The notes under the pieces were generated by a model. The model was given only the letters and a program-made list of their open reading frames with translations, ran no database searches and was not told the origin of the DNA. Below are positions 18,440-63,261 of a stretch of DNA of 64,000 bases, piece by piece; positions within the stretch are counted from its first letter, which is position 1, and each line of letters starts with the position of its first letter. The stretch is from a virus. Its lineage: Duplodnaviria > Caudoviricetes. The translations under genes were made by a program, and so were the position numbers. The stretch lies in the IMG/VR virus record IMGVR_UViG_3300021256_002823, positions 1,646-65,645 of that record; one strand, given 5' to 3'.

Positions 18440-18440
18440 A

Positions 18441-33293: not shown

Positions 33294-34559
33294 TTATACA
33301 TCCTCTTCCGGCGTCGCCCAGACCTCTTTCACAAGATCCGAATAGGCGATCTTCTTACCGCCGCGCTCAACGAAAACCCCGTCCGCGTCACCAGTCAGAT
33401 CGACATACCTTCTTAAAATAACTGATGCATATTTCTCATCAAGTTCCGACATGTAACAGATCCGGCCAAGCTGCTCGCAGGCCATCATCGTGCTGCCGGA
33501 ACCGCCGAAGGTATCGAGCACGATGGAGTTCTCCTGGCTCGAGTTATGAATCGGATATGCAAGCAGGTCCAGCGGCTTGCTGGTCGGATGATCCTTGTTG
33601 CGCTTCGGCTTATCAAAGTTCCAGACCGTTGTCTGCTTTCTATCGCTGTACCACTTGTGTTTTCCGTTCTGTAGGAATCCATACAGGATCGGCTCGTGCT
33701 GCCACTGGTAATCCGACCGGCCCAGGACCAGAGAGTTCTTCACCCAGATGCAGGTCCCAGCCAGATGGAATCCAGCGTCAATGAATGCCTTCCTGAAGTT
33801 CAGACCTTCCGTATCCGCGTGGAACACATAAGCCGATCCACCTGGCTCTAAGTGAGAAGCCATGTTCTGAAATGCCGATAGCAGGAACTGATAGAACTCC
33901 TCGCCCTTCAGGCTATCGTTCTGGATTGTGAGCCCATCCGATGCTTTGAAGGAAACTCCATACGGAGGGTCCGTCACGATCAGGTTGGCACGCTTGCCAT
34001 CCATGAGCTTTTCAACATCCTCAGCGGATGTGGCGTCGCCGCAGAGCAGTCTGTGCTTTCCGACGGTCCACAGGTCACCCTTCTCGACGAAGGATGCCTT
34101 CTCAAGGGCCGCGGTAAGATCGTAGTCATCATCTTTCGCTCCGGTCTCGTTTCCGCCGTTTAAGAGCTTATCGAGATCACCCTGCTCAAAGCCCAGGAGT
34201 GAAAGATCAAATGCGTTCTCCTGCAGATCGGACAGTTCGACCGACAGCATTTCCTCGTCCCAACCTGCATTTAATGCCAGCTGATTGTCTGCAAGAATGT
34301 AAGCTCGCTTCTGCGCCTCCGTCAGATCCTCAGCAAAGACACAAGGCACGGTATCATAGCCTTCCTCGCGTGCTGCCTGGACCCTGCCGTGACCGACCAG
34401 AATGTTGTAATCCGCGTCAATGACTGCAGGGGAGACGAAGCCGAACTCCCTGAGGGATGCACGAAGCTGCGCTATCTGTTCTTTACTATGAGTCCGGGCA
34501 TTCCGGGCATAAGGCACCAGCTTATCTATTGGTACCTGCTCAAATCGTTTTGTATTCAT
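33294..34559 (-). CDS. ParB-like domain fused to an N6/N4 DNA methyltransferase
   Basis: PYARNARTH...ILVGHGR; TDPPY; LDTFGGSGST. Confidence 0.92.
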   Translation of the reverse strand: MNTKRFEQVPIDKLVPYARNARTHSKEQIAQLRASLREFGFVSPAVIDADYNILVGHGRVQAAREEGYDTVPCVFAEDLTEAQKRAYILADNQLALNAGWDEEMLSVELSDLQENAFDLSLLGFEQGDLDKLLNGGNETGAKDDDYDLTAALEKASFVEKGDLWTVGKHRLLCGDATSAEDVEKLMDGKRANLIVTDPPYGVSFKASDGLTIQNDSLKGEEFYQFLLSAFQNMASHLEPGGSAYVFHADTEGLNFRKAFIDAGFHLAGTCIWVKNSLVLGRSDYQWQHEPILYGFLQNGKHKWYSDRKQTTVWNFDKPKRNKDHPTSKPLDLLAYPIHNSSQENSIVLDTFGGSGSTMMACEQLGRICYMSELDEKYASVILRRYVDLTGDADGVFVERGGKKIAYSDLVKEVWATPEEDV

Positions 34560-35338
34560 ACAAGCCCCCACTCAGCAAATTTCTCAAAACCGCCAACCTT
34601 GCGAATATACTCGCGGGCAGTCTCGACGATCTCTTCAAAGGGAACGTCGCCTACTGTTTCATCACCGATGGCGCAGGAAAACTCCACTGGCTTCCCAGTA
34701 TTCTGCGCTTTGAGAAATGCATAAATGTTGACGGATACATCTGCCTTGCTGAGGTCCTTCCCGTGAAGGCCTCCGCCGGAAACGCTGTCCGCCATATCGC
34801 TTCCAAGTTTTCTGTTCGTGGCACCGGTATCGACATCTGTGCCACCGGTCCAATCACCGAGCGGATTGATCTCCGCACCGGGATATAAAGCATCGATGTC
34901 TGCCTTTGCAGCGTGACTCTGGCAGATGATCAGCCTGGCACCATCCAGGATGTACTTCCCGTCAAATGGATACCTGCTGTAGATATCCTTTGAAATCGAA
35001 GCGAGCTCTTTCTGCTCTGCTGTTACAGGCACACCTTTGAAGATCCCGTTGTCGCCGCAGCGTATGCCACCTTCCTGGTTATCTGCCAGATGCACATCTT
35101 GCGGAACTTCTACATAATCAACTTTCACATCTCCAGCGATCCTGCGAACTATCACAGACACATCTTCCGGAATGAACCGGACCGAGGTCTCCGCAATTAT
35201 GTGACACACTCCGTGCCCGATCAGGACCTCGACTGCAATCCTTGGATTCTCATCCATTTCATATGCCAGGTCCACAAGTGCACCGGCGATTCTGTCCGCC
35301 ACCTTATCCGGATGGCCGGGATTTACTTTTTCAAACAT
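34556..35338 (-). CDS. metK: Compact methionine adenosyltransferase (SAM synthetase)
   Basis: GHPDK, GDNG, GGGLHGKDLSKAD; about 260 aa. Confidence 0.85.
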   Translation of the reverse strand: MFEKVNPGHPDKVADRIAGALVDLAYEMDENPRIAVEVLIGHGVCHIIAETSVRFIPEDVSVIVRRIAGDVKVDYVEVPQDVHLADNQEGGIRCGDNGIFKGVPVTAEQKELASISKDIYSRYPFDGKYILDGARLIICQSHAAKADIDALYPGAEINPLGDWTGGTDVDTGATNRKLGSDMADSVSGGGLHGKDLSKADVSVNIYAFLKAQNTGKPVEFSCAIGDETVGDVPFEEIVETAREYIRKVGGFEKFAEWGLV

Positions 35339-49759: not shown

Positions 49760-50161
49760 TCAACACCGCCTCCCGCGTTCTACCTTATATGCGTCAACAA
49801 CCTGAATATCTGCTGGCAGCCAATCAACGGAGTCGAGCTCCTCGGCCGTTAACCACTTGGCTGCTTCATGTTCTTTTAGGACGAGATTCCCAGCAGCCAC
49901 CGTGCACAGAAAACATTGCATCGAAAGATGGAAATCCGGATAGTCGTACTCGACCACGGTCAGCAGATCGCCGACCGTGATCTCAGTATCAAGCTCCTCT
50001 TCAATTTCTCGTTTCAATGCCTGCTGCGGCGTCTCACCAGGCTCTATTTTTCCGCCAGGAAACTCCCAGCCGTCTTTGAAATCACCGTAACCGCGTTGAG
50101 TAGCAAATACTCTGTTTCCGTCCTGTATTACCGCGGCAACGACATTCACAACCCGCATCAA
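49760..50161 (-). CDS. NUDIX hydrolase, MutT/NudG-like
   Basis: GGKIEPGETPQQALKREIEEEL NUDIX box. Confidence 0.92.
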   Translation of the reverse strand: MMRVVNVVAAVIQDGNRVFATQRGYGDFKDGWEFPGGKIEPGETPQQALKREIEEELDTEITVGDLLTVVEYDYPDFHLSMQCFLCTVAAGNLVLKEHEAAKWLTAEELDSVDWLPADIQVVDAYKVERGRRC

Positions 50162-53067
50162 TAATATTCCTCGATATAGCTGTAGGCCTTATCAAAGACT
50201 TCCTTATCCTTGATTTTGTATTTGATCCAGACAACACTACGCAGAGCTTTCTTCACTTCCTGCTTGCCTGCCGTTGTATTCTGCCACCCATCAAAGCGGA
50301 CGATCTTAACGATGTCATCAATGTCCGTGACAATCCTTTCCACGATAACCGGCGTCTTCGGATTCTTCATACCGTTGAACAGTTCAGTAAGAGCAGCTTT
50401 GCCCTTATCAATTTCTTCCTCTGGCACTACTTCCTTCTCTGCCTGAGCAGCCTCACGTGCTAATTCAAGCAGGAGCTTCAGGAATTCAACACTGGTGATC
50501 AGTCCCTGCTCATGGCGCTCCCGGAGCTCCTCGACCTTCTGGCCGAGTTTGATAAACTTTGGATCATTGCTATGCTTACGGATTTTTGCTACAAGGTCGA
50601 TCTCCACCTTCATTGTTGTTTTCTTTATGTCCTTCTGCTTTTCAATAAACTGATCAATCAGTTCAGCGTCCATTGTGATGATTTCCTCATCCTCATGAAC
50701 ATCTCCGACGTCCAGGTTTTCATGGACCAGCTCCATAGTCTTCGGCCCAAGGGATGCCCAGATCAAGCCACCGCGACCGTCAGTCGGTTTCACGGATTCA
50801 TAGACGCGGCTGAGCCATTGGTAATCGAACTTATACTGCCCGAGGAACGGGTCTGGTGAAAGCGCGTTCCATGCCCGGTTGAGCACAACATAATCAGCTG
50901 CGAACTCATCCTTTTCTTTATTTGTCGGGATACACTCTTGCGCTGCCATAAGCCCTTCCCAGCCATCGATGTTACGATCAACACCCATGAAATAGCTCAG
51001 GCACTTACGCATCAGCGCCGGCAGCTGCTTCTTAACTTCTTCAATGTTTGTGATAACCTTGCGCATTCCGGCCTCATCGAAGTCGAGCGCCTTAGCTACG
51101 TTATCGAAGATACCAATATAATCAACGATCAGACCAAAAGTCTTACCCTCATCATATGTACGATTTGTACGGCAGATCGCCTGGAGCAAGGTATGATCCT
51201 TCATCGGCTTGTCCAGGTACATGACCTGAAGAATCGGAGCATCAAAACCGGTTAGCAGTTTGGATGTCACTATGACCAGCTTCAGAGGTGAATTCGGATC
51301 TCTGAAGAAGTCCAGGAGCTTGCCTTCCTCATCACGGTTTCTGCGATACTTCTTATAGCGATCCTCTTTGTCGTTGTTCGTATCCATGACAATGTCAGAT
51401 GCTTCCGGAGGCAGGAGCTTATCCAGTTCCTCTTTATACATAAGGCAGCACTCACGGTCATAGACAACGACCTGGCCTTTATAACCGTTTGGCTCGATCT
51501 TCTCTGTATAGTGTTTGACGATATGCTCGCAGACCTTACGAATACGCTTACGGTCATACATGATCGCTTTCATATTGACGCGCTTCGACAACTCTGCCTT
51601 ATCTTCCTCAGAGAGGCCTTCGGTCAGAGCATCAAATTCCTGATCCAGCTTCTCTTTGTCAACGTGCAGGTCCACCGGTACTGGCTCAAAGTTCAGCGGC
51701 AGTGTAGCCTTATCACGGATCGAATCTTGGAAGGAGTACTTACTCATGTACCCGCTCTTATCCTCAATCGCGCCAAAGGTCTTGAATGTGTTCTTGTCCA
51801 GACGATTGATCGGAGTACCGGTCAGGCCGAAGAAGAATGCATTCGGCAGCGCCAGGCGCATCTTTGATCCGAGGTCTCCTTCCTGGGTCCTATGGGCTTC
51901 ATCGACCATGATGATGATGTTGTCGCGGCGATTCAGTTCTTCATCCACATCGCCAAAGCGGAATATGGTCGTAATGGCAATCTTACGGATATCCTGCTTG
52001 AAGAAATTGATCAGTTCTTCCTTTGTAGCGAGACTGGTTAGATTCGGAATGTCTGAGGCATTGAACGTTGCTGTAATCTGCGTTTCCAGATCCAGCCGGT
52101 CATCAACAATAACCACGGTCGGATTCTTCAACTCGGGGATCATGCGGAGCTTCTGCGCAGCAAATACCATAAGCAGTGATTTACCAGATCCCTGGAAGTG
52201 CCAGATAAGGCCCTGCTTCGGGTATCCGGCGCACACTCGCTGCACGATTAGATTAGCTCCTTCGTACTGCTGATAACGGCATATGATCTTATATTTTCTA
52301 TACTTCTTATCGGTCGCAAAGAGCGTGAAGAACTGGAAAATATCCATCACCTTTTCCGGAGTGATCATATCTTCGATACTAACCTTCACGTCTGCAAGGC
52401 TTCCCTCCGCCTTATGAGTTGCCGTATGCCACGGGCCCCACATGTTAATCGGCATGCCAACGGAACCGTACCTGTAGCATTTACCCTCTGTGCCAAAGTT
52501 AAATACGTTCGGAACGAACATCGCCGGAATGCTTTTTTCATACGCAGCTATATCCCCGGCTGCATCAAGCCAGCTTATTGCATTACGGACAGGCGTCTTA
52601 AGCTCGCCAATGCCAATAGGAAAACCATTGATGAGAAGAACGATATCAAGTCTCTTACCATCTTCCTTCTGTGGATAGACCCACTGATTAGTAACAACAT
52701 ATTCGTTTAATGCAAGATTTTCTTTGGTCATCGTCCCAAAGAACCTGATTGGAATCATCCGGCCATCTTTTCCAAATGGATAAGAATTCTCCTCAAAAAT
52801 CATCTTCTTAAACTGTTCATTCTGTTCGATAATGCTATGCGCTTGTACAGATAGCATAAGTGTACGTATTTTGTAAATAACTTCATCTGCTCGATCGGGC
52901 TCAGCAGCAATTTCCGGGTTGAGTCTAATAAGAGCGTCCTTTACCATCTGTTCAACCATGACATCAGAGTATTCTCTATTCAGCTGCTCAGCAGGAATAT
53001 ACTTCCATCCATTGTTTTGCAGTGTGTTTATTACCATCTGCTCAATTGTATTATCTTCATTAAACAT
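50158..53067 (-). CDS. hsdR: Type I restriction subunit R
   Basis: RLDIVLLINGFPIGIGELK nuclease motif; QGSGKS, VDEAHR, LTGTP, LLTGFDAP. Confidence 0.95.
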   Translation of the reverse strand: MFNEDNTIEQMVINTLQNNGWKYIPAEQLNREYSDVMVEQMVKDALIRLNPEIAAEPDRADEVIYKIRTLMLSVQAHSIIEQNEQFKKMIFEENSYPFGKDGRMIPIRFFGTMTKENLALNEYVVTNQWVYPQKEDGKRLDIVLLINGFPIGIGELKTPVRNAISWLDAAGDIAAYEKSIPAMFVPNVFNFGTEGKCYRYGSVGMPINMWGPWHTATHKAEGSLADVKVSIEDMITPEKVMDIFQFFTLFATDKKYRKYKIICRYQQYEGANLIVQRVCAGYPKQGLIWHFQGSGKSLLMVFAAQKLRMIPELKNPTVVIVDDRLDLETQITATFNASDIPNLTSLATKEELINFFKQDIRKIAITTIFRFGDVDEELNRRDNIIIMVDEAHRTQEGDLGSKMRLALPNAFFFGLTGTPINRLDKNTFKTFGAIEDKSGYMSKYSFQDSIRDKATLPLNFEPVPVDLHVDKEKLDQEFDALTEGLSEEDKAELSKRVNMKAIMYDRKRIRKVCEHIVKHYTEKIEPNGYKGQVVVYDRECCLMYKEELDKLLPPEASDIVMDTNNDKEDRYKKYRRNRDEEGKLLDFFRDPNSPLKLVIVTSKLLTGFDAPILQVMYLDKPMKDHTLLQAICRTNRTYDEGKTFGLIVDYIGIFDNVAKALDFDEAGMRKVITNIEEVKKQLPALMRKCLSYFMGVDRNIDGWEGLMAAQECIPTNKEKDEFAADYVVLNRAWNALSPDPFLGQYKFDYQWLSRVYESVKPTDGRGGLIWASLGPKTMELVHENLDVGDVHEDEEIITMDAELIDQFIEKQKDIKKTTMKVEIDLVAKIRKHSNDPKFIKLGQKVEELRERHEQGLITSVEFLKLLLELAREAAQAEKEVVPEEEIDKGKAALTELFNGMKNPKTPVIVERIVTDIDDIVKIVRFDGWQNTTAGKQEVKKALRSVVWIKYKIKDKEVFDKAYSYIEEYY

Positions 53068-53085
53068 GCTCTCTCCTCCTAACCC

Positions 53086-54222
53086 TTAAGAGCGCTTCAT
53101 AAGCGAATTAATTACGCTATCAACGTCAGATAAAGCCTGTCGCAACTCGTTCTTTGCGGTGTCGCTTTGCCGATAGAACAACTCAAACTCATCCTGAAGT
53201 TCAATTGGCGGCAATGAAATCGTATAGTCTTTCAAATATGCAATAGGGACCCTTAGTTGCCCTCCTGTACCGGTCATTACTTTCCTTGCATTTATTCTGA
53301 ATGCCTTAAACATCGTAATTGTATAAAGCCAATACGGGTTCGATTTTCCTTCTATAGGTCTAAGCACATGAAACTCTGTAGATCCTGCGCCTATTTTATT
53401 CTCAAGGTTTTCTGCTACCGCACCTTTTCCATTTTCCATACAAGGTGTGATTTTCGCAAATAGCACATCCTTCTCCCCAAAATATGTAAACCCTGTTTTC
53501 ACCTCTTTGTAAGATCTCTTTTCTGAAAGATCAATATGTCCATCTTCACTTACAGCAGGCATTGGGACAAACGAAACATTTATATCTTCCGGGATATCCT
53601 TAGGTCTTCGTGGATTAAGAATACAGCATTCATCGAGTTTAGTAAGGCCCCAGCCCTTATCATCAAATCCTGGTCTTCCGAACATCTCAATAAAATGAGA
53701 TTTAACGAGCATATCGGTTTTATTGATCAGATCTCTGTACGCTTCTTTGGCCTCATTCGCAGCGCTGAGAATTTCTGCCAACTTTTTTTGTTCCTCCATA
53801 TCGGGCAAACCGAACTCAAGATCTTTAAGCGTTTTCCAATTAACGGTCGGTGACAATGAGCCAACGGAAATACGAATAGCCTCATCCATAAAATATGCGG
53901 ATGAAATAAAGAACGGAAAATATTCAGGATCAATGACCTTCGTTTTGGGTCTGAAAATCATGCCATGTGCTGAAAAAAAACCATCGTGTGGTGCTACAGC
54001 CGCCCTTCTCAAATATGTATTCCGCCTGCCGAAGAGAATGTCTCCTTTATGCATAATTAGTTTCTGACCCTTAATAGGGACATCACTACCCCAGCGGGTC
54101 ACCTTTAGGCTTCCACTATCAAGGTGCTCTAAGCCTATATACATTTTCTCATCGCCTGGAGCCGGCACTCCTTTTTCGGTAATATTCTCAGCAATGTCAG
54201 AAAACTTATATTTTGCCATCAC
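53086..54222 (-). CDS. hsdS: Type I specificity subunit S
   Basis: Two TRDs, each closed by a PxxxxQ conserved helix (LPDMEEQ, LPPIELQ). Confidence 0.9.
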   Translation of the reverse strand: MMAKYKFSDIAENITEKGVPAPGDEKMYIGLEHLDSGSLKVTRWGSDVPIKGQKLIMHKGDILFGRRNTYLRRAAVAPHDGFFSAHGMIFRPKTKVIDPEYFPFFISSAYFMDEAIRISVGSLSPTVNWKTLKDLEFGLPDMEEQKKLAEILSAANEAKEAYRDLINKTDMLVKSHFIEMFGRPGFDDKGWGLTKLDECCILNPRRPKDIPEDINVSFVPMPAVSEDGHIDLSEKRSYKEVKTGFTYFGEKDVLFAKITPCMENGKGAVAENLENKIGAGSTEFHVLRPIEGKSNPYWLYTITMFKAFRINARKVMTGTGGQLRVPIAYLKDYTISLPPIELQDEFELFYRQSDTAKNELRQALSDVDSVINSLMKRS

Positions 54223-55709
54223 TGTTCACCTCCTAATAAGTCGAGTAGCTTGCCGTATTCGTCTTGTACTCTTGAACTTGAAACCATCCAATCTGAAAGG
54301 GCATCTTCAAAGTTTGCAACCTCGCCAAGGACTTTTTCTGCAGTATCTGTAAATACATACAATGGAATACTTAATTTACATCCATTATCAATAATCTCCC
54401 TCATGCTTACTTTGCGTGCAAAGCCATCGATATCCTTAAAATCACGGTAAGCCCCAGCGATTTTATCGATATGCTTTTGCTCCAAATAGCTCTCTGCATT
54501 TTTTCGAGTAACTTCATTCTTTGCATTTATAAACAAAATATGTCCCACATGATCTTTAGGCTTTTTTGTTCTGCAAATTACGATACAAGCCTCCATTGGA
54601 GAATTAAAAAACAGGTTTCTACCAATTCCTATTACACATTCCACCAAGTCACTTCGAACGAGCTTCTCACGCATTGAATCTTCTTCATCTCTAAACAACA
54701 CACCATGTGGAAACAATATCGCGCATCGTCCGGTTTCGGGGTCCATGCTTTTCAAAATATGCTGAAGAAAAGCATAATCCGCCCGTCCCTGTGGTGGTGT
54801 CCCTAAAAAATTCCTGCCATACTTGTCTGACTCAAAAGCTGATCTATCCCACTGCTTTATTGAATATGGGGGATTTGCAAGTACGAGATCAAACGTCTGA
54901 AGTTTACCGTTTTTCACAAAACCTGGTGACTTCAAGGTATCGTCATTAACAATCCTGAAATCCTGTACACCGTGAAGAAATAAGTTCATTCTTCCAATAG
55001 CAGATGTAAGCTGATTGATCTCTTGACCATACACCTTAACATTGCGCCATTCCTCTCCCTTATCCTTCAGGTATGCTATACACGAAATAAGCATGCCAGC
55101 ACTCCCAGCTGTAGGATCATAGACAGATTCACCTGACTTAGGGTCAAGCATTTCTGTCATTAGATGGACCACAGTTCTGTTTGTATAGAATTCCTGCGCA
55201 GTATGTCCGCTATCATCTGCGAACTTCTTTATTAGGTATTCATAGCCTTGCCCAAGTTCATCTTCCGGGCAGTTAGCGATAGATAGGGTTTTGCTCGAAA
55301 AATGCTCTATCAGATCTTTTAACAACTCATCTGACAAACGATTTTTATTGGTCCAGGAAGCGTCGCCGAACACTCCATGTAATAATTCCTTGTTTGCTTT
55401 TTCAATGGAGCGAAACGCATTTACGATTGCAACTCCGACATTTTCTGATACTTTGCGTACATCACTCCAATGACTACCTTTTGGAACAATAAACGTATGA
55501 TTTTCTTCCCACTCAAGAGCCTCAACATCACCGTTGTTTTCTTTTAGAACTTTCTCGCACTCTTCATCGTACACATCACAAATTCTCTTAAAAAACAGAA
55601 GTGGAAAAATGTACTGCTTATAAGCTCCCGCATCAATATTTGTTCGAAGCAATACTGCGGAATTCCAAAGGTAAGATTCGAGCTCCTCTAAAGATATTCT
55701 TTTACTCAT
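54219..55709 (-). CDS. hsdM: Type I methyltransferase subunit with NPPY motif
   Basis: LWNSAVLLR, EFYT, YDPTAGSAG, ANPPYS. Confidence 0.93.
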   Translation of the reverse strand: MSKRISLEELESYLWNSAVLLRTNIDAGAYKQYIFPLLFFKRICDVYDEECEKVLKENNGDVEALEWEENHTFIVPKGSHWSDVRKVSENVGVAIVNAFRSIEKANKELLHGVFGDASWTNKNRLSDELLKDLIEHFSSKTLSIANCPEDELGQGYEYLIKKFADDSGHTAQEFYTNRTVVHLMTEMLDPKSGESVYDPTAGSAGMLISCIAYLKDKGEEWRNVKVYGQEINQLTSAIGRMNLFLHGVQDFRIVNDDTLKSPGFVKNGKLQTFDLVLANPPYSIKQWDRSAFESDKYGRNFLGTPPQGRADYAFLQHILKSMDPETGRCAILFPHGVLFRDEEDSMREKLVRSDLVECVIGIGRNLFFNSPMEACIVICRTKKPKDHVGHILFINAKNEVTRKNAESYLEQKHIDKIAGAYRDFKDIDGFARKVSMREIIDNGCKLSIPLYVFTDTAEKVLGEVANFEDALSDWMVSSSRVQDEYGKLLDLLGGEQ

Positions 55710-58113
55710 CGATGTAACCGCCTTCCTTTAACAGACTTGTCAGCCGGGATTCTGCAACTCTCACTGCAGCAAGTGCATCCTCAAACTCCTGTCTAACTTC
55801 TCTTGGATCTCTTATTTCCTCCTGCTTATGTTCAATGTAGGTATTAACTGAAAGCAGGTAATCGTGCTCACGTATATCAGCGATCGAGACTATTTTGGCT
55901 TTTTCAATAACGTCCAGATAATCTTTATAAAGGGAATAAACGTCATTGATATTCTTCTCCGTCATCTTGTTCTGAGCACGTTCAGCAGTATAAATCTGAG
56001 AAGCATCTATCATACAGACTTTGCCTTTATGAGCAAACTCCTTATTATTATTCAGAATCAATGCACATGCAGAAGTGTTTGTGCTGTAAAACAAGCCTCC
56101 AACAAAAGCTACTATTGCTTCCAGTTTTCCAGTCTCTACGAGTGCTTTTCTCATCTCGGCCTCTTTTCCTCCATGGAAAAGAACACCCTGTGGAAGAATA
56201 ACGGCACATTTACCGGACTTTGGTTTCATTGACTTTACCATATGTTGTAGCCAAGCAAAGTCTGCACTTGAATCAGATGGGCACCCCCACATGTTACGTC
56301 CATACTTATCACTCTCAAACTGTGATGCTCCCCACTTGTCCAGCGAGAACGGAGGATTCGCCAAAACACAATCAAAAGTTTTAAGTTTTCCAGCTTCAAT
56401 AAATGCAGGTTGTCTTAATGTATCTCCTTGGACAACTTTAAAATCGTGGGCCCCGTGAAGAAATAGATTCATTCTTGCAATAGCGGATGTTGACAGATTC
56501 TTCTCTTGGCCATACATGTTTCCATATGTAAGCTGCATATTACCAATATGGCGTATAGCTTCGATCAACATTCCTCCAGTTCCACATGCCGGGTCGTAAA
56601 CACTATCACCAGGTTTAGGATCAAGAAATTTTACCAGGAGCTTTACTATTGATCTCGGTGTATAGAACTCTCCAGCATTCTTCTTCGAGAGATCTGCAAA
56701 CTTTTTAATCAAGAACTCATAAGCGTCTCCCATCACATCAGCCGAATAATTGTTATTACCCACCTTAAGTTTTGAGAAATGTTCGATCAAATCTTTCAGA
56801 CGCTCATCTGTCAACTTTGTCTTATCCGTCCAGTTTGCATCATCAAAGCTCGAGAAAACACCGCTTAGAGTCTCCGGATTAGCCCGCTCGATCCCCGTCA
56901 TTGCAGAGACAATTGCCTTTCCAACATTTTCGCTTGCGTTCCTTACGTCATTCCAATGACACCCTTCCGGAATCACAAAGCTATGCTGCTCCGGGAAGGA
57001 TGCAAAATCCTCATCCCCGCCAGATTCCTCCAAAGCCGCCTGCGTCTCTTCATCATAAACATCCGAGATTCTCTTAAAGAAGAGAATCGGAGTAACATAG
57101 CTCTTAAACTCGTCCTGATTAATCGGGCCACGTAGAATATTACAGGCTTCATATAAATGTGAAAAAAGCTGCTGGCTGGTCGTTTCTTCGCTCTCAACCA
57201 TACTATCTGCCAGGTCTTTATCAACTGATTCCACAGCAGACTGAATCATAGCCTCGCGGTTTCCAACTTCAACCTTTGTCGGTGACTTCACGCTGACACT
57301 GATATCGTCATCGACTTTCTCAATACGTGAAGGATACTTGTTCTCGAACTCCACCAGAATCTCCATTTGCCGCTCATCCAAGAAGGTAAGTGCGTGCTTC
57401 CTGATCTCGACAGGAATGCCATAGTAGGCTTCCGCCACACCACCAGTAATAGCTGCAAGCGTATCACTGTCTCCGCCGATGGAAATTGCATTCCTGATCG
57501 CATCCTCAAAGCTGGTAGACTCGAAAAAGGCCATCAATGCCTGCGGTACGGTTTCCTGGCAGGTCTCATTGAACTTATAGCTGTCACGGATACCATCAAG
57601 CGTGAAGTTCATCGGATAGTACTCCTTATCGATCACGTCGCGGATCTCAAGCATATTTTTTCCTGACCGGGCCAGAAAGATTGCAACAGCAGTAGCCTCC
57701 GCACCTTTGATTCCTTCCGGATGGTTATGTGTAACACCTGTCACCATCTTTGAGAGGATCTTCGCATCGATCAGATCCTTTGCAGCAAAACCAGCCGCGC
57801 TGACTCTCATCGCGGCTCCGTTGCCATAACTCTTATACGGTTGTGGGTTTCTATCCTTCAGCCACTTGCGGAACATTCCGCCGTAGCCGGCATCCGGATA
57901 AAGGTTTCCAAGCTGCTGCATATAGCGGACCGTCATAGCAGGCAGGTCACTGTGATCCGGCTTGCTCTTAAGGATCGCCTTGGCCACTGCCAGTGACATG
58001 ATGCTGTCGTCGGTCGGGAAACACTTGTATGTAAGGAAATCAAAGTCCTTCGCCTTATAGTTATTCCATTCAAATCGAGACCCAACAATGTCTCCGATGA
58101 TTGCTCCAAGCAT
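55702..58113 (-). CDS. hsdM: ADP-ribosylglycohydrolase fused to a type I methyltransferase subunit with NPPF motif
   Basis: N-terminal GAIIGDIVG, TDDS, GNGAAMR, GGDSDT; C-terminal EFYTPR, YDPACGTGG, ANPPFS. Confidence 0.9.
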   Translation of the reverse strand: MLGAIIGDIVGSRFEWNNYKAKDFDFLTYKCFPTDDSIMSLAVAKAILKSKPDHSDLPAMTVRYMQQLGNLYPDAGYGGMFRKWLKDRNPQPYKSYGNGAAMRVSAAGFAAKDLIDAKILSKMVTGVTHNHPEGIKGAEATAVAIFLARSGKNMLEIRDVIDKEYYPMNFTLDGIRDSYKFNETCQETVPQALMAFFESTSFEDAIRNAISIGGDSDTLAAITGGVAEAYYGIPVEIRKHALTFLDERQMEILVEFENKYPSRIEKVDDDISVSVKSPTKVEVGNREAMIQSAVESVDKDLADSMVESEETTSQQLFSHLYEACNILRGPINQDEFKSYVTPILFFKRISDVYDEETQAALEESGGDEDFASFPEQHSFVIPEGCHWNDVRNASENVGKAIVSAMTGIERANPETLSGVFSSFDDANWTDKTKLTDERLKDLIEHFSKLKVGNNNYSADVMGDAYEFLIKKFADLSKKNAGEFYTPRSIVKLLVKFLDPKPGDSVYDPACGTGGMLIEAIRHIGNMQLTYGNMYGQEKNLSTSAIARMNLFLHGAHDFKVVQGDTLRQPAFIEAGKLKTFDCVLANPPFSLDKWGASQFESDKYGRNMWGCPSDSSADFAWLQHMVKSMKPKSGKCAVILPQGVLFHGGKEAEMRKALVETGKLEAIVAFVGGLFYSTNTSACALILNNNKEFAHKGKVCMIDASQIYTAERAQNKMTEKNINDVYSLYKDYLDVIEKAKIVSIADIREHDYLLSVNTYIEHKQEEIRDPREVRQEFEDALAAVRVAESRLTSLLKEGGYIDE

Positions 58114-58127
58114 GTGTCATGCCCTCC

Positions 58128-60227
58128 TTATAATTTCTTTACGCCGACCGTATTCATCAGGTTTTCAATGATATCCATCTCCGGTTTCGGAGGAATGAAT
58201 GCGATGAATCCATCACGGCCTCTTGTCAGCAGGACTCGATAACTGTTCACACGATAGGTGTTCACGTCACTATCCTCATCCTCATTCGGCTTAAATAACT
58301 TCCATGCATAGCCGTCCCACATCATATCAGTACCCCAGCCAATGATCGGCATATCGAGTTCCAGACCCTGAACGCCAAACTCGGTGACAACCTCTGTGAG
58401 CGCACAGCAGGAACGGGAATCTCCCTGTGGCGTGTTAAACCACTTACCATAGTTGGTCGGCGGATCACGGAACTGAGGAACATGCATGTACGGGTCCAAC
58501 CCCTTCGCCTTTGACGAGCACAACAGCCCATAGCGTTTATTGATCTCTCCGCGATAACGATCTCGGCAATACTGCTTTGCCTTTTCGATGTCGCGGGTAT
58601 AGTACATGTTGTAATTCTGGTCATAGATGGTAGGCACCTTCTCGGCCGCTGCATCCAGGTCTCCGTCAATCAGGAGGTTGACGAAGTCACTAACATCGCC
58701 AGCGAGGTGAGTCCTGAGCGGGATCTTCAAATCGAATGCCTCCGGATCAAGCCCGGTAGCCATCATCTGACCAGCAAACACGTCAGCCAGCTTCGGCGGG
58801 CAGATCATCTCCCAGTGCTTGCTACCGTTCTTCATAGCCTGGTTCCACAGGCCGATGCCGGAGTTCTCACCGTTATGGATCTCTTGGCCTTCACCGACCA
58901 GGATCAGCATCACGCACCATTCGAGGCGCTGCTCTGCCAAGCGGATCATCACGTCCGGTTCAGAGAAGTTACCACGGCTCTTCGCAACCATCTGCTTCGT
59001 ATCCCAGGCACGCTGGCCTTCATCAAAAACCAGCACGTTGTTGCTGAAGTCAGGTGCTCCGTTTCTCAAGAACTCGTTCTCGACCTTATGCAGGTCCTTG
59101 ACGAAGACGTTACTGCCGAGAGCATCGGTGAGCACCTTTACCAGCGGTCCATTTCCAGAAAGATAAACGGAATTTACTGCCCCATCAGGGCCCTGGATAT
59201 CATAAACATATTGAAGTCCCAGATAGGTTTTGCCCGATCCTGGAACACCGGTCACAAAGGCAATTGTGTGTGCCTTAGTCTCCCTGGCATGGTCCGTGAG
59301 CTTTTTCAGGTTTTCCAACGTCTGCGGGATGACCGTGCTCTGAACCCTGCGAATGTGCGGAAGCTCCTCATTCTTCATAAACATTCGAGCTGCTTCAACG
59401 ATTGTCGGAAGCGGCTCATACTTGGAATCCATCCATGCAGACAGATCACAAGCAGTGACTGTCGCTGTCTGCTTTGCCTCGATCGTCTCTGCCAAGCAGT
59501 CTCCTGAACAGACCGTGACACCTGCATTATTTGACGGATGAATACCTTTAGCACGTGTAAGCACAAGAACAGCTTTCACGTCCTTATCCCGAGATTCAAA
59601 ATGATACTCTCGGATGTCGCGTGCATAAGCACCTGCCTGGTCCACATCCTCTGGAAGCGCAGTAGGCTTCATCTTGAACTCCAGAATCAGGACCTGCTCC
59701 TTACTGAGAAGAACAACGTCCGGACGCCTGCCGGATTCATAGGGAAGCGCATACTCAAAAATGATGCTGTATGCTGGGTCCAGACCGGAAAGCTGATCCT
59801 GCAGGGTATCAAAGCAATCTATCCAGGCATGCTCCTGCGAATCGCCGAGCGCCAACCTGTATTCATTCGCGAATGCTGAGCGCATTTCCTGCAGCCACTC
59901 GTCACGGTTTGCACCCAGGAATCCGCCGATGCTGTTGGAATAGCAGCACCGTCTGTTCATGATCGGCTCGTCTTTTTTCTTAGGAGTCGACGCACGCCTC
60001 TTTGCCGGTGTCGGTGCAGCAGCCGGAACCTCGACGTCCTCGCCACAGTAACGCTTGATGAATGCGACACCTTCTGTGTTCCAGGTCTTCGTGTACCAGC
60101 ATTTTTTATAGTTCGTATATCGGAGGCCAGCAGCCTTCATCTGATTACGCAGCTTCTCGTCCGGGAACTGACCATCAAAATAAAGCTCGATGCCATCCTG
60201 CTCTTTATTTTCAATGTAATGTGCCAT
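58128..60227 (-). CDS. PD-(D/E)XK-like nuclease fused to a DUF2075 (Schlafen group 3-like) helicase/ATPase
   Basis: RRPDVVLL...ILEFK; GVPGSGKT; VFDEGQR; GLELD; YRVLLTRG. Confidence 0.8.
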   Translation of the reverse strand: MAHYIENKEQDGIELYFDGQFPDEKLRNQMKAAGLRYTNYKKCWYTKTWNTEGVAFIKRYCGEDVEVPAAAPTPAKRRASTPKKKDEPIMNRRCCYSNSIGGFLGANRDEWLQEMRSAFANEYRLALGDSQEHAWIDCFDTLQDQLSGLDPAYSIIFEYALPYESGRRPDVVLLSKEQVLILEFKMKPTALPEDVDQAGAYARDIREYHFESRDKDVKAVLVLTRAKGIHPSNNAGVTVCSGDCLAETIEAKQTATVTACDLSAWMDSKYEPLPTIVEAARMFMKNEELPHIRRVQSTVIPQTLENLKKLTDHARETKAHTIAFVTGVPGSGKTYLGLQYVYDIQGPDGAVNSVYLSGNGPLVKVLTDALGSNVFVKDLHKVENEFLRNGAPDFSNNVLVFDEGQRAWDTKQMVAKSRGNFSEPDVMIRLAEQRLEWCVMLILVGEGQEIHNGENSGIGLWNQAMKNGSKHWEMICPPKLADVFAGQMMATGLDPEAFDLKIPLRTHLAGDVSDFVNLLIDGDLDAAAEKVPTIYDQNYNMYYTRDIEKAKQYCRDRYRGEINKRYGLLCSSKAKGLDPYMHVPQFRDPPTNYGKWFNTPQGDSRSCCALTEVVTEFGVQGLELDMPIIGWGTDMMWDGYAWKLFKPNEDEDSDVNTYRVNSYRVLLTRGRDGFIAFIPPKPEMDIIENLMNTVGVKKL

Positions 60228-60239
60228 GGAGTTCCTTTC

Positions 60240-60998
60240 TTATTCAGAGACTTTGCGCAGTCGGAACTTGTATTCCTTTCTGGTATCGCCAGCCTCGTCT
60301 TTCTCTGTTTCGTAGTAGTATTCAACCAGAGTGAAAGCTCCCTGGTAGTAATATTCCTCAGGCGAGAGCTTCACGAACAAGTGGATGGTCTTGCCGTCCG
60401 CTGCAGCATCCTTGATTGCCCTGTTGCCACCGGTCATCTTCTGATCACCGCTCTTGCCTTCACCGGAATAGATGTAGTCGCCGTTTGTATCCCAGTGATC
60501 GTGATATACAAATCCGCTCTTTTTCTTATCGACAGAGGAGATCAGTACGACCGTTGTATCGGTCTTATTGATCCCCTTACCGAAACCGGAGATGCGGATG
60601 CCAAATTCATCCTCGACCTGCTTATATGTGAGGATCGGCTGTCTGACCAGATGCTCCACGTGATAGTCCGGGCCGAAGCCATGATCGATATCAGTTCCTT
60701 TTTTCTTTCCGGCTACCGGTGCCTGCTCAGCACGACGTCTTTCCGCAGCTGCAGCCCTCTCAGCCGCTGCAGCATCTGCCGCTGCCTTCTGCGCAGCCTG
60801 GGCTGAGGCGATCTCTTCTTCAACCGCTGCCTGCATCGCACTGTCCTGGAGTTTCACGAACTTCTCAAACGCATCCGGATAAATAAAAGTCTTTGTGCCC
60901 TTATCGCCAAAGTCGATCGATACATGTGTCCCATCAAGGGAGACCACGGTGCCTTCTCCAAATGCTTTATGAGTTACTTTCTGATTATTGATATCCAT
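60240..60998 (-). CDS. Tudor/SH3-like domain, Ala-rich linker and SRA-like domain, with no nuclease
   Basis: VTHKAFGEGTV; YHDHW...YSGEGKSGDQKM..GNRAI...IHLF. Confidence 0.65.
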   Translation of the reverse strand: MDINNQKVTHKAFGEGTVVSLDGTHVSIDFGDKGTKTFIYPDAFEKFVKLQDSAMQAAVEEEIASAQAAQKAAADAAAAERAAAAERRRAEQAPVAGKKKGTDIDHGFGPDYHVEHLVRQPILTYKQVEDEFGIRISGFGKGINKTDTTVVLISSVDKKKSGFVYHDHWDTNGDYIYSGEGKSGDQKMTGGNRAIKDAAADGKTIHLFVKLSPEEYYYQGAFTLVEYYYETEKDEAGDTRKEYKFRLRKVSE

Positions 60999-61009
60999 CT
61001 GGGTCCTCC

Positions 61010-61648
61010 TCATACTGCGCGCTGCATCTGCTGTCCATCAAAGAGACCTGCCAGCTTGCGCGGCGTATAGATGCGGCCCTTCATGTGTTCTATTTGTTCC
61101 AAGCTCTGATGTACCTTGATTCCGAATTCCTTATCCAGGAAGGTCGAGCGCATCACGGCCGTCCGCTCCATCTCATCCTTGATCTCACGTCTGCGGCGAC
61201 GGCGGACCTGGAGCATCTTGGATGTTTTTAGCATCTCAGCATCGTCCAGATCGTTCAGTTCCAAGTAATGAAGCAGGTCGCAGACCTCCTTGTCAACATC
61301 GGAGAGCATGGCGTTCAGGTTATCCTGGTACTCCTGGATATGGGAGCTCATGTAGCAAAGCTGTGACAGCGTGGATTCCCAATTATTCTTAAGCCCGTCA
61401 AACATAGTCGGCTTCTCGACCTCATCGTAATCCGGTGCGTTATAGGTCGGCTCCTCTGGCTCTGTTTCGACCTTGGCTTCGATCGTTGTATAGAACTTTG
61501 CCTTCCGGCCACCACCGATTCTATTGTTTGCATCGCGGAGGGTGAACAGCTCTGCCTCGCTGGAGTCCCTCGCCGCTACGAGATTGCCGTTAGCGCCAAT
61601 CTTGTAAAAGTGGCCTTGCATATCGATAATGTTGTACATCTTCGTCAT
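61010..61648 (-). CDS. Hypothetical protein with a helical, coiled-coil C-terminal half
   Basis: Overlaps both neighbours; LSDVDKEVCDLLHYLEL. Confidence 0.7.
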   Translation of the reverse strand: MTKMYNIIDMQGHFYKIGANGNLVAARDSSEAELFTLRDANNRIGGGRKAKFYTTIEAKVETEPEEPTYNAPDYDEVEKPTMFDGLKNNWESTLSQLCYMSSHIQEYQDNLNAMLSDVDKEVCDLLHYLELNDLDDAEMLKTSKMLQVRRRRRREIKDEMERTAVMRSTFLDKEFGIKVHQSLEQIEHMKGRIYTPRKLAGLFDGQQMQRAV

Positions 61649-61662
61649 GGCGCTTCCCCCTC

Positions 61663-63261
61663 TCAATAATTCTGTAATTTGCTGAGCGTATCCTTCCAGC
61701 GCTGCTCGGCCTCGGAAATGCTCTGAATATAATCCTGGTACGAATTCTCATATTCGTAGGCGACCTGTTTCTGATCCTCGATGGTCGGGAACGGCACGTC
61801 CAGCATCTTTAGGTCCTTGTAGCTAATGTTCATGACCGTCATGCCCTGCTGCAGACTGCTAATCAAGCTGTTGCCTATCGGGCTATCAATGAAGATCTTC
61901 AGATAGGTGCTGTCGAGCATCTTCGGGTCCGGACGGATCACGATCACATTGGATGAAGCGATGCATGGGTATTTCTGCTTATGGAACACCGCGGTGCGGA
62001 TCGCTGTGCCCCTGGCCGGCAGAAGGACATCGCCCTCACGCAAGATATAATTCGCAACCTTTCGTTCTTCCTCATCGAGTTTATCCAGCCCGTCATAGTC
62101 GATCTCATACTGTCCGATGTTGGAGATGTTCACCACACCAATCGAGCCGGTCGAGTCCTTCTTCGCTACGGACTTCCCGCGGAAGATCTCAGCGACCTCG
62201 CCGAGCGGGATCTTCTTCAAATCGGAGGCCTGGTAGCGCATAAACTCATCGTCCTGTTGCGTCAGGAGCTTGTCGATATTCCAATCACCGATATCTTCGA
62301 GCTCTTCCCGCATGGCGAAGGTATCATCACCGACCTCCATCTTCTCCACTGGACCGCGCTTGGTCTTACGTTCGACCGCCATATACTTTCTGATGACGAT
62401 ATCCTCAGTGCGGCCGGTACTTACCGTGATTAGGTATGTCTTGATGCCAGTGTTCTGGAAAATTCCGTCCGGTAGCTCTGCGATCATGCCCAGCTTGTAC
62501 ATCTGCACCACGAACTTCCGTAAGTCGTTCACGTGGCCACCAGCGAAGGTGATCCGGCCCGGCATGACGATGACAAGCTCACCGGAAGCGGAGATATGAA
62601 GGAGCAAGTTCTCAAGCGCCACCATATCAGTCTCGCGGCACATGAAGTTCGATGCATCCTCGGCCAAGTCGCGACCAGCGAAGTTCGGAATCGAGATGAT
62701 CCGATCAAACTTATCGTTGATGAATCCGTACTTATAAATATCGGCCACAATAACCTTCACGTTCATGTAGCCTTCAAAGACTCGTTCCAGTACCTTCTCA
62801 CAGAGCAGATTCTGCGACGTAATCGTGAACTCCACGTCCAGATGTGCGTCTACGGTTGATTTCAGATTCGGTACGAACTTCTCGCCCTCAGCAATCAGGA
62901 CCGTCTGGCCACCTTCGATGTGAGACATCATTTCTTCCGTAAGCGGCGCCGGAGCCAGAATCGTATACATTCCTTCAAAGGAAAGGTACTGATAGAGCAT
63001 CCGCTCCCAATCCGGTGTATCGCTCAGGCTCTTGTAGGCTTGATAGAATGTATCAACATCGGGGAAGGGATTTTGGACGCGCAGCTTGTCTGCCACGACC
63101 AGCATTGCCTCGTAGGCTGCTTCCTTCTCCATATTTTCATTGTTGTTCTGAGCCTTGGTCTCTGCGACCAGGAGTGCTCCTTCGAGCATCCGTGTAGGAG
63201 CCATAGTCCCTCGCAGTGCGTTGTAGTACATCCAAATTCTCTCTTCCTGTGCAGTAGCCAT
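61663..63261 (-). CDS. Degenerate N6-MTase-like domain fused to one HsdS-like TRD
   Basis: FDRIISIPNF in place of NPPF; VVIMP-like VIVMPG; LGEVAEIFRG...LREGDVLL...VPFPTIEDQ. Confidence 0.7.
   Translation of the reverse strand: MATAQEERIWMYYNALRGTMAPTRMLEGALLVAETKAQNNNENMEKEAAYEAMLVVADKLRVQNPFPDVDTFYQAYKSLSDTPDWERMLYQYLSFEGMYTILAPAPLTEEMMSHIEGGQTVLIAEGEKFVPNLKSTVDAHLDVEFTITSQNLLCEKVLERVFEGYMNVKVIVADIYKYGFINDKFDRIISIPNFAGRDLAEDASNFMCRETDMVALENLLLHISASGELVIVMPGRITFAGGHVNDLRKFVVQMYKLGMIAELPDGIFQNTGIKTYLITVSTGRTEDIVIRKYMAVERKTKRGPVEKMEVGDDTFAMREELEDIGDWNIDKLLTQQDDEFMRYQASDLKKIPLGEVAEIFRGKSVAKKDSTGSIGVVNISNIGQYEIDYDGLDKLDEEERKVANYILREGDVLLPARGTAIRTAVFHKQKYPCIASSNVIVIRPDPKMLDSTYLKIFIDSPIGNSLISSLQQGMTVMNISYKDLKMLDVPFPTIEDQKQVAYEYENSYQDYIQSISEAEQRWKDTLSKLQNY

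What the first reader, a model, noticed from the sequence alone, without database searches (positions are those of the whole stretch)
55702..58113. ADP-ribosylglycohydrolase fused in frame to a type I methyltransferase
Seen: a complete DraG/ARH-like domain (~260 aa, with GD, TDD and DSDT metal-binding motifs intact), a linker, then a full HsdM. Established: ARH/DraG enzymes remove ADP-ribose from proteins, and phages and toxins use ADP-ribosyltransferases on proteins and DNA. Inference: the R-M complex carries its own eraser to reverse ADP-ribosylation of its subunits or of DNA at recognition sites, i.e. anti-anti-restriction. This is the strongest candidate for an undescribed mechanism in this window.
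Basis: partly seen in the sequence, partly recalled or inferred. Interest (0 to 1): 0.85.

Follow-up and report, generated by a model that had tools for sequence, protein, structure and literature searches.

The report
ADP-ribose eraser fused to restriction methylase
A prophage-borne restriction system carries, fused to one of its two DNA-methylating subunits, an intact enzyme that removes ADP-ribose tags; its nearest free-standing relatives are the antidotes that phages encode beside the ADP-ribosylating toxins they pack into their heads, so it probably shields restriction from such injected toxins, though this is untested.

Summary
ORF 55702-58113 (-) encodes 803 aa: an ADP-ribosylglycohydrolase (ARH) domain with its catalytic Glu and metal ligands, a ~45-aa partly structured tether, and a complete HsdM. 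It is not an artefact. Independent contigs bridge the junction, and 266 species genomes plus 16 of the 80 best viral contigs carry the same ~805-aa protein.

It is the adenine-methylating M1 (NPPF) subunit of a PacII-type two-methylase (m6A/m4C) type I R-M system. M2 (NPPY), HsdS and HsdR follow it. The system is cargo on a 65.6-kb phage record from an animal gut metagenome.

Earlier agents of this scan found the same fusion on other DNA. New here:
- In the ARH tree all fused domains form one clade.
- The clades branching next to it are phage ARHs encoded beside head-protein-fused, Arg-type (R-S-ExE) ADP-ribosyltransferases. This is the published Bxa/BAH toxin-immunity layout, and BAH's catalytic E15 has its counterpart here.
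- Free relatives also sit next to GmrSD and McrBC.

Best reading (about 0.45): a captured phage antidote that undoes ADP-ribosylation by injected phage toxins and keeps restriction working. The function is inferred, not shown. No paper I could search describes the fusion.

The parts
57331..58113 (-). ARH (ADP-ribosylglycohydrolase) domain, residues 1-261 of the fusion; catalytic E15 and metal ligands D8, T34-D35-D36, D215, D217, T218
   Evidence: Pfam PF03747 E 2.8e-32. AF2 model has pLDDT 93.5. Best solved folds are ARH3 (TM 0.75), MJ1187 and DraG.
57199..57330 (-). Tether, residues 262-305: variable in sequence but of conserved length; predicted beta-hairpin (263-276) and helix (286-303, with near-invariant R286)
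   Evidence: Alignment A2. Full-length AF2 model. No Shine-Dalgarno site before the internal Met305.
55702..57198 (-). M1 methyltransferase core (HsdM_N + N6_Mtase), motif IV NPPF at 56347..56358; predicted m6A subunit
   Evidence: Pfam. Best PDB match is PacII chain 7vru_A, 458 bits. NPPF = m6A subunit according to PMC5100572.
54219..55709 (-). M2 methyltransferase (496 aa), motif IV NPPY; predicted m4C subunit; its start overlaps the M1 stop by 8 nt
   Evidence: Pfam. 45% identical to the M1 core. Best PDB match is 7vru_B, 544 bits. Directly downstream of ARH-M1 in nearly all 80 genome loci where the DNA reaches that far.
53086..54222 (-). HsdS specificity subunit (378 aa, two TRDs)
   Evidence: Pfam Methylase_S, two stretches. 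Position conserved.
50158..53067 (-). HsdR restriction/translocase subunit (969 aa)
   Evidence: Pfam HSDR_N, SWI2_SNF2 and T1R_D3-like. 62-87% identical copies in 59 loci.
61663..63261 (-). 532-aa methyltransferase-like protein with a single TRD. It lies directly upstream of ARH-M1 in about half of related loci; here three inserted genes separate them. Possible accessory of the system.
   Evidence: Pfam N6_Mtase (weak) + Methylase_S. Present at 37-81% identity upstream in many loci. TRD resembles PDB 8vsq 'Esub1'.

Best explanation
Shown:
- The gene encodes the adenine-methylating M1 subunit of a PacII-type M1-M2-S-R type I restriction-modification system.
- Its N terminus carries an intact, BAH-like ADP-ribosylglycohydrolase on a ~45-residue tether.
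- The system is cargo of a temperate-type phage.

Inferred mechanism:
- Many phages pack Arg-specific ADP-ribosyltransferases, fused to MuF/portal head proteins, into their capsids. These enzymes are thought to enter the cell with the DNA.
- The phages protect their own producer cell with a short ARH antidote (BAH).
- An ancestor of this R-M system captured that antidote and fused it to M1.
- When an ART-carrying phage or element injects its enzyme, the tethered hydrolase strips ADP-ribose from arginines of the R-M subunits, and possibly of other nearby proteins. Recognition, methylation and cutting of the incoming DNA then continue.
- In short, it is an eraser that guards restriction against a post-translational anti-restriction attack.
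For: Domain integrity:
- Pfam, fold and catalytic residues are all in place, and the residues are kept in 80 of 86 fused homologues.
- The ARH domain is as conserved (63-81% identity) as the MTase core (63-74%) across phyla.

R-M type:
- The NPPF/NPPY pair and gene order match PMC5100572.

Phylogeny (quick ML tree):
- All 86 fused ARHs plus three derived free copies form one clade (SH-aLRT 97).
- The clades branching next to it are phage-encoded free ARHs. The nearest groups include five loci in which the ARH lies just downstream of an ADPrib_exo_Tox ART fused to head or portal proteins.

Wider survey:
- Of the 80 best viral contigs, 16 are fused. Another 22 are free ARHs with such an ART ending 230-400 nt upstream, or lying convergent.
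- The ARTs carry R / S / ExE motifs, the Arg-specific type.

Experimental anchor:
- In PMC11699363, Bxa is a MuF-fused promiscuous Arg-ART. BAH is its ARH immunity protein and E15A kills it.
- The window protein has E15. It shares the N-terminal MLGAIIGDIVGSRFE and 44% full-length identity with the ARH of a Bxa-like locus in Bacteroides phage Versailles.

Context:
- No ART gene lies in the window or within 10 kb in any of the 80 genome loci, so the writer is external.
- Free relatives sit beside other restriction enzymes: GmrSD (L131) and HsdR+McrBC (L100).
- Precedent for a phage PTM enzyme that disarms defences: T7 kinase, PMC13645617.
Against: - No experiment shows that any R-M subunit is ADP-ribosylated, or that MuF-type ARTs act as anti-restriction factors. 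Their biological role is called unknown in PMC11699363.
- Substrate specificity cannot be read from sequence. By sequence and fold the domain scores closer to ARH3 (Ser/O-linked, also nucleic-acid ends) than to ARH1.
- BAH works as a free enzyme and did not need to bind its toxin, so tethering to M1 is not obviously required.
- Free copies nested within the fused clade occur in other settings: in a lytic-type phage next to the Thoeris inhibitor Tad3, and paired with an HTH gene. This fits a general-purpose eraser.
- Four of 86 fused proteins have lost catalytic residues yet keep the domain.
- PacII-type systems work without it: PacII M1 is 499 aa, and P0242 is 61% identical and unfused.
- The tree is a quick search with a midpoint root and limited sampling.
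Confidence: 0.45

Rival explanations
1. General orphan immunity. The ARH neutralises injected or released Bxa-type ART toxins for the whole cell, as a free BAH would. It is fused to hsdM only for co-expression and co-transfer on mobile elements, and has no special relation to restriction.
For: BAH acts catalytically on many proteins and does not bind its toxin. Free copies nested in the fused clade function outside R-M loci. The system is mobile cargo: it lies in a phage record, and similar proteins occur in distant phyla and in an archaeon. An earlier scan note describes an orphan BAH-type immunity islet in a phage-free bacterium.
Against: The fusion has one origin and has been kept for a long time. 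Tether length and a tether helix are conserved in hundreds of lineages. Simple co-expression would be met by a separate gene. Relatives recur beside other restriction nucleases.
Confidence: 0.22
2. Nucleic-acid eraser. The ARH removes ADP-ribose from DNA (bases or ends), so that the complex can read, methylate or cut ADP-ribosylated invader DNA, or so that host DNA is repaired.
For: DNA ADP-ribosylation systems (DarTG) are known to sit inside type I R-M operons (PMC8883491). The domain is tethered to a DNA-bound, translocating complex. Sequence and fold are nearest to ARH3. From my own knowledge, not checked here, ARH3 also removes ADP-ribose from nucleic-acid ends.
Against: Known reversal of base ADP-ribosylation uses macro or NADAR domains, not ARH. 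The nearest relatives pair with protein Arg-type R-S-ExE ARTs. No DarT-like gene lies nearby.
Confidence: 0.1
3. Self-regulation. Reversible ADP-ribosylation of the R-M complex by a host enzyme controls restriction (restriction alleviation, or establishment in a new host), with the ARH as the built-in off-switch.
For: DraG-type regulation of nitrogenase is the classic role of this superfamily. Type I systems are known to need post-translational control.
Against: No conserved ART partner lies in the window or in 80 related loci. The hosts span many phyla and an archaeon, so a shared host writer is unlikely.
Confidence: 0.06
4. Small-molecule hydrolase. The ARH degrades an ADP-ribose-derived signal or product (for example a cyclic ADPR isomer or O-acyl-ADPR) and serves the mobile element as an anti-defence or metabolic function.
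For: A 76%-identical free copy lies next to a Pfam 'Tad3' Thoeris inhibitor in a lytic-type phage. A candidate-defence NUDIX gene (PDC-S07) abuts hsdR here and in several related loci.
Against: There is only a single Tad3 neighbour. No Thoeris or sirtuin genes are in the conserved neighbourhood. Tethering to a DNA enzyme is unexplained by this reading.
Confidence: 0.07

Closest known systems
PacII-type m6A/m4C type I R-M systems (M1M2S; Morgan et al. 2016, PMC5100572; PDB 7vru/7vs4)
   Same: Two paralogous M genes in the order NPPF-M1, NPPY-M2, then S, then R. The window's M1 and M2 match the two different M chains of 7vru reciprocally.
   Different: PacII M1 is 499 aa and has no N-terminal domain. 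The paper never mentions an ADP-ribosyl hydrolase. Here M1 carries a 261-aa ARH plus a tether.
BAH, the ARH immunity protein of the prophage MuF-ART toxin Bxa (Alexei et al. 2024, PMC11699363)
   Same: A short (~260 aa) ARH with catalytic E15 and the same metal motifs. It is 44% identical to the ARH of a Bxa-like locus in Bacteroides phage Versailles. The fused clade branches next to ART-linked phage ARHs.
   Different: BAH is a free protein encoded beside its toxin and a second immunity gene. Here there is no toxin gene and the enzyme is fused to a restriction methylase. BAH's own sequence was not compared.
Tri1 / DraG / ARH1 / ARH3 (characterised ARH-superfamily erasers)
   Same: Same fold, binuclear metal site and catalytic Glu.
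   Different: Only 19-23% identity. All are free enzymes of 290-360 aa. None is attached to a DNA-modifying complex.
DarTG inserted in type I R-M operons (PMC8883491)
   Same: ADP-ribosylation machinery genetically tied to type I R-M.
   Different: DarTG is a writer plus a macro-domain eraser acting on DNA, encoded as separate genes. Here there is only an ARH-fold eraser, with no writer, and it is fused in frame.

Membership tests
ADP-ribosylglycohydrolase superfamily (Pfam PF03747; DraG/ARH1/ARH3/Tri1) | Profile match above the curated cut-off over the whole domain | tested here: met
   113 bits against a cut-off of 26.2, profile positions 3-281 of 287
ADP-ribosylglycohydrolase superfamily (Pfam PF03747; DraG/ARH1/ARH3/Tri1) | All-helical ARH fold | tested here: met
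   AF2 pLDDT 93.5. Foldseek gives ARH3 TM 0.75 with E 1e-9, then MJ1187 and DraG.
ADP-ribosylglycohydrolase superfamily (Pfam PF03747; DraG/ARH1/ARH3/Tri1) | Catalytic Glu plus the Thr-Asp-Asp and Asp-x-Asp-Thr metal ligands | tested here: met
   E15, T34-D35-D36 and D215-S-D217-T218 align with the ARH3 motifs. They are kept in 80 of 86 fused homologues.
ADP-ribosylglycohydrolase superfamily (Pfam PF03747; DraG/ARH1/ARH3/Tri1) | Hydrolysis of an ADP-ribosyl linkage | not testable with these tools
   Needs an enzyme assay.
BAH-type immunity ARH of phage head-borne ARTs | Short ARH whose catalytic Glu is residue 15 | tested here: met
   E15 in the window protein. BAH E15A is inactive.
BAH-type immunity ARH of phage head-borne ARTs | Encoded next to a MuF/portal-fused ADPrib_exo_Tox ART | tested here: not met
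   No ART lies in the window or within 10 kb in 80 genome loci. This holds only for the free phage relatives.
BAH-type immunity ARH of phage head-borne ARTs | Phylogenetic grouping with ART-linked ARHs | tested here: inconclusive
   The quick ML tree places ART-linked phage ARHs among the nearest groups outside the fused clade. The careful search did not finish, BAH itself is not included, and the root is at the midpoint.
BAH-type immunity ARH of phage head-borne ARTs | Removes Arg-linked ADP-ribose and rescues cells from the toxin | not testable with these tools
   Needs an assay.
PacII-type m6A/m4C type I R-M | Two paralogous hsdM genes, the upstream one with NPPF and the downstream one with NPPY | tested here: met
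   NPPF in P0001 and NPPY in the 496-aa M2. The rule is stated in PMC5100572.
PacII-type m6A/m4C type I R-M | hsdS next to M2, and hsdR present | tested here: met
PacII-type m6A/m4C type I R-M | Closest solved relatives are the two PacII M chains, each to its own counterpart | tested here: met
   M1 to 7vru_A, 458 bits; M2 to 7vru_B, 544 bits
PacII-type m6A/m4C type I R-M | Bipartite motif methylated as m4C on one strand and m6A on the other | not testable with these tools
   Needs a methylome (SMRT or nanopore).
DarTG-type DNA ADP-ribosylation module in type I operons | DarT writer and macro-domain DarG | tested here: not met
   The Pfam scan of the eight genes of the locus and its upstream flank found no ART or macro domain. 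The conserved neighbourhood holds none either.

The most novel reading that the evidence does not exclude
Capsid-packed phage ADP-ribosyltransferases (MuF/Bxa type), whose role in infection is unknown, are anti-restriction weapons. They ADP-ribosylate arginines of restriction complexes as the DNA enters. Hosts and rival prophages answered by stealing the phage's own antidote and bolting it onto the restriction complex. That would be a post-translational 'anti-anti-restriction' layer of the arms race.
Probability: 0.3. Interest if true: 0.85.

Novelty: new variant of a known kind. Interest (0 to 1): 0.68.

Why it matters
If the reading holds, three things follow.
- It gives a purpose to a large, unexplained class of phage head-borne toxins: attack on host defences at the moment of DNA entry.
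- It shows that a restriction enzyme can carry its own repair enzyme against post-translational sabotage. That is a defence layer not described for R-M systems.
- It is directly testable with a four-gene operon, one point mutant (E15A) and ART domains that are already in hand as sequences.

Even if the R-M-specific part fails, the data show that a phage immunity enzyme was captured once and then spread, fused to a methylase, across many bacterial phyla and an archaeon.

Tried and rejected
- E. coli genomes: a megablast of the gene found nothing. The window is an IMG/VR phage record from an animal gut metagenome.
- Literature: searches for ADP-ribosylglycohydrolase with 'type I restriction', with HsdM, and for the Pfam names gave only unrelated co-mentions. 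The Aravind-lab NAD/ADPr virus survey has no R-M or methylase mention next to ARH.
- Internal translation start for an unfused M1: no Shine-Dalgarno site before Met305. Rejected for this window.
- A writer in the locus: tblastn with three phage ART domains found nothing in the window or in L001-L080.
- NUDIX link to the portal-NUDIX-ART protein of L099: only 32% identity over 80 residues. Not pursued.
- Independent ARH-HsdM fusions: among the 150 best representatives of the M1 core, seven of the other N-terminally extended HsdMs were scanned. They carry nSTAND1 or unassigned domains, not ARH.
- The careful tree search did not finish in the time allowed, so the quick tree is reported.
- DNA for the unfused relative P0242 was not available; only its gene table could be read.
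- Contig depth was not used as evidence of abundance.
Full report
**1. What is there**

The minus strand holds one ORF at 55702..58113 (803 aa). It has a strong Shine-Dalgarno site in front of the ATG.
- Pfam finds ADP_ribosyl_GH at residues 1-233, HsdM_N at 318-446 and N6_Mtase at 457-766, all far above their cut-offs.
- The ARH part keeps the catalytic Glu (E15) and the metal ligands D8, T34-D35-D36, D215 and D217-T218.
- Modelled with 30 relatives it folds with pLDDT 93.5. Its best solved matches are ARH3 (TM 0.75), MJ1187 and DraG.
- Residues 262-305 vary in sequence but keep their length. The full-length model predicts a beta-hairpin and a confident helix there, followed by a low-confidence stretch.
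- There is no ribosome-binding site before the internal Met305.

**2. Not an artefact**
- More than 120 full-length proteins of 800-811 aa at 72-77% identity exist in independent assemblies and isolate genomes: Bacillus cereus group, Clostridium perfringens, Dehalococcoides, Lysinibacillus and others.
- 266 species genomes encode a relative. They are mostly Bacillota, but also Akkermansia, Sphaerochaeta, Synergistaceae, Deferribacteraceae, Proteiniphilum, Acholeplasma and the archaeon Methanomicrobium mobile.
- Contigs from other studies bridge the domain junction of this very sequence or of a 94% relative.

**3. The system it belongs to**

Directly downstream, with an 8-nt overlap, lies a second plain hsdM (496 aa, 45% identical to the M1 core). 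HsdS and HsdR follow.
- The fused protein has motif IV NPPF and the second M has NPPY.
- This is the signature and gene order of the m6A/m4C type I systems of Morgan et al. 2016. There, M1 (NPPF) makes m6A, M2 (NPPY) makes m4C, and the two form an M1M2S heterotrimer (PMC5100572).
- The window's M1 and M2 each match their own chain of the PacII structure 7vru best.
- The order ARH-M1, M2, S, R (R sometimes upstream) holds in essentially all 80 genome loci wherever the DNA reaches far enough.
- The ARH is optional for the type. PacII M1 is 499 aa. The nearest unfused M1 cluster (P0242, 61% identity) heads an M1-M2-S locus without an ARH.
- Earlier agents of this scan reached the same placement on other genomes. 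I checked it independently as described above.

**4. Setting**

The window is almost the whole of a 65.6-kb IMG/VR virus record.
- The record has a terminase, portal, ClpP-type protease, HK97-type capsid, tape measure, PolA, DUF2800 nuclease, D5-type primase-helicase, SNF2 helicase and a ParB-methylase.
- The source is an animal gut metagenome.
- The R-M operon is therefore prophage cargo. Related phages carry it at the same place (L007, L020, L027), and 16 of the 80 best viral contigs hold the fusion.
- A 532-aa methylase-like protein with one TRD precedes ARH-M1 in about half of the loci. Here three genes are inserted between them: an unknown 218-aa protein, an SRA-domain protein and a Schlafen-type helicase that matches the PADLOC candidate PDC-S41.

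**5. Where the ARH came from**

This is the new part.

Free-standing relatives of the domain are common in phages: 299 viral contigs encode a relative. In many of them the ARH gene lies just downstream of an ADPrib_exo_Tox ADP-ribosyltransferase that forms the C terminus of a head-associated protein. Examples:
- a 1530-aa portal-NUDIX-ART protein (L099);
- 1162-, 551- and 400-aa ART proteins (L098, L101, L094, L097);
- an 869-aa ART protein next to the portal in Bacteroides phage Versailles.

With a small HMM built from seven such ART domains, 22 of the 80 best viral contigs show this pairing. The ARTs have R, S and ExE motifs, the arginine-specific type.

This is the arrangement studied by Alexei et al. 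2024:
- Bxa is a MuF-fused, promiscuous arginine ART that is toxic to bacteria.
- BAH is the adjacent ARH. It reverses the modification, and E15A inactivates it.
- The authors call the biological role of MuF toxins unknown.

The window's ARH has E15. It shares its first 15 residues and 44% overall identity with the Versailles ARH.

In a quick maximum-likelihood tree of 107 ARH sequences:
- all 86 fused domains plus three distinct free copies form one clade (SH-aLRT 97);
- the clades branching next to it are free phage ARHs, including the ART-linked ones.

The simplest reading is a single capture of a phage antidote by an M1 gene, followed by wide horizontal spread and a few secondary escapes. 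The escapes are a lytic-type phage copy next to a Tad3 Thoeris inhibitor (L082), a bacterial copy (L084) and an HTH-ARH pair (L087). The caveats are a quick search, a midpoint root, BAH's own sequence not being included, and sampling driven by peptide patterns.

**6. Further context that bears on function**
- No ART gene occurs in the window or within 10 kb of ARH-M1 in any of the 80 genomes. The writer is therefore not part of the system.
- Free ARHs of the family also sit beside other restriction enzymes on prophages. One is a GmrSD next to an ARH-DUF6508 fusion (L131). Another is an HsdR-McrB(EVE)-McrC block followed by an ARH (L100).
- The ARH domain is as well conserved as the methylase core, which indicates purifying selection.
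- Four lineages have nonetheless lost several catalytic residues while keeping the domain: L021, L039, L065 and L071.

**7. Mechanism**

Shown: an intact ARH of the BAH kind is tethered to the m6A subunit of a complete two-methylase type I system on a phage.

Inferred: it removes arginine-linked ADP-ribose that injected phage ARTs place on the restriction complex, and perhaps on neighbouring proteins, and so preserves restriction.
- Head-packed ARTs that enter with the DNA are established for T4 Alt and proposed for MuF fusions (PMC5512222).
- A phage kinase that disarms defence systems by mass modification is a recent precedent (PMC13645617).

I put this at about 0.45. The rivals are:
- a cell-wide orphan immunity function, with the fusion only for co-inheritance (0.22);
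- a nucleic-acid eraser (0.10);
- a small-molecule hydrolase (0.07);
- a self-regulatory switch (0.06).

The remainder is unassigned.

**8. Novelty**

The R-M type is known and the ARH family and its immunity role are known. The in-frame union of the two, its single origin next to the phage antidote lineages, and the implied guard function are not described in any paper I could search. I class it as a new variant of a known kind. The same fusion has been reported by this scan on other DNA. The link to Bxa/BAH-type antidotes was not among those notes.

Noticed in passing
window 58128..61666 (-): Three genes are inserted between the 532-aa MTase-TRD gene and ARH-M1. They are a Schlafen-group-3/DUF2075 helicase (699 aa; PADLOC candidate PDC-S41, E 1.6e-130), a 257-aa SAD/SRA-domain protein with a PcrA/UvrD tudor motif, and a 218-aa protein with no family. 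The 218-aa gene recurs at the same place in L090 (60% identity). This may be a modified-base-sensing defence module.
   Followed up: partly
window 49760..50161 (-): A MutT-like NUDIX gene (133 aa; PADLOC candidate PDC-S07, E 1.6e-51) overlaps the hsdR stop by 4 nt. A NUDIX gene also abuts hsdR in L042-L045 and L055, and one lies in L079. NUDIX domains also occur inside the portal-ART polyvalent protein of L099.
   Followed up: partly
window 52500..57000: G+C drops to about 0.40 across the hsdR 5' end, hsdS, M2 and the 3' half of M1, against 0.49-0.52 on both sides. A 94%-identical contig from another study matches only from 56993 upward and diverges below. Together these suggest a recombination joint inside M1 (module swapping).
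   Followed up: partly
L129 and L131, 5001-6626: An ARH of the same family is fused to DUF6508 (541 aa), directly downstream of a GmrSD type IV restriction enzyme that carries a DUF4268 tail. A separate DUF6508 gene precedes the free ARH in L084-L086.
   Followed up: partly
L082 7246-8804: A lytic-type phage (thymidylate synthase, ligase, gyrase/topoisomerase with inteins) encodes an ARH 76% identical to the fused domain, right after a Pfam 'Tad3' type I Thoeris inhibitor. It may be an anti-defence islet.
   Followed up: no
L021, L039, L065, L071 (ARH part, 10001-10810): Four fused proteins have lost catalytic residues (for example E15K+D36N+D215N in L065, and D8N+E15R+D36A in L071) while keeping the full-length domain.
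   Followed up: no
P0377, P0283, P0387, P0348, P0285: Other HsdM lineages carry different N-terminal extensions of about 170-580 residues. One is an nSTAND1 NTPase and the rest have no Pfam family. The HsdM N terminus seems to be a hot spot for accessory domains.
   Followed up: partly
window 15786..23194 (-): A 645-aa protein with nine DUF4379 treble-clef zinc-finger repeats lies near three large ORFs (532, 646 and 436 aa). Two of them show weak tyrosine-integrase similarity. The block sits in the middle of the phage genome.
   Followed up: no
window 33294..34571 (-): A ParB_N-N6_N4_Mtase fusion (425 aa) among the phage early genes, i.e. a second phage-encoded DNA methylase.
   Followed up: no
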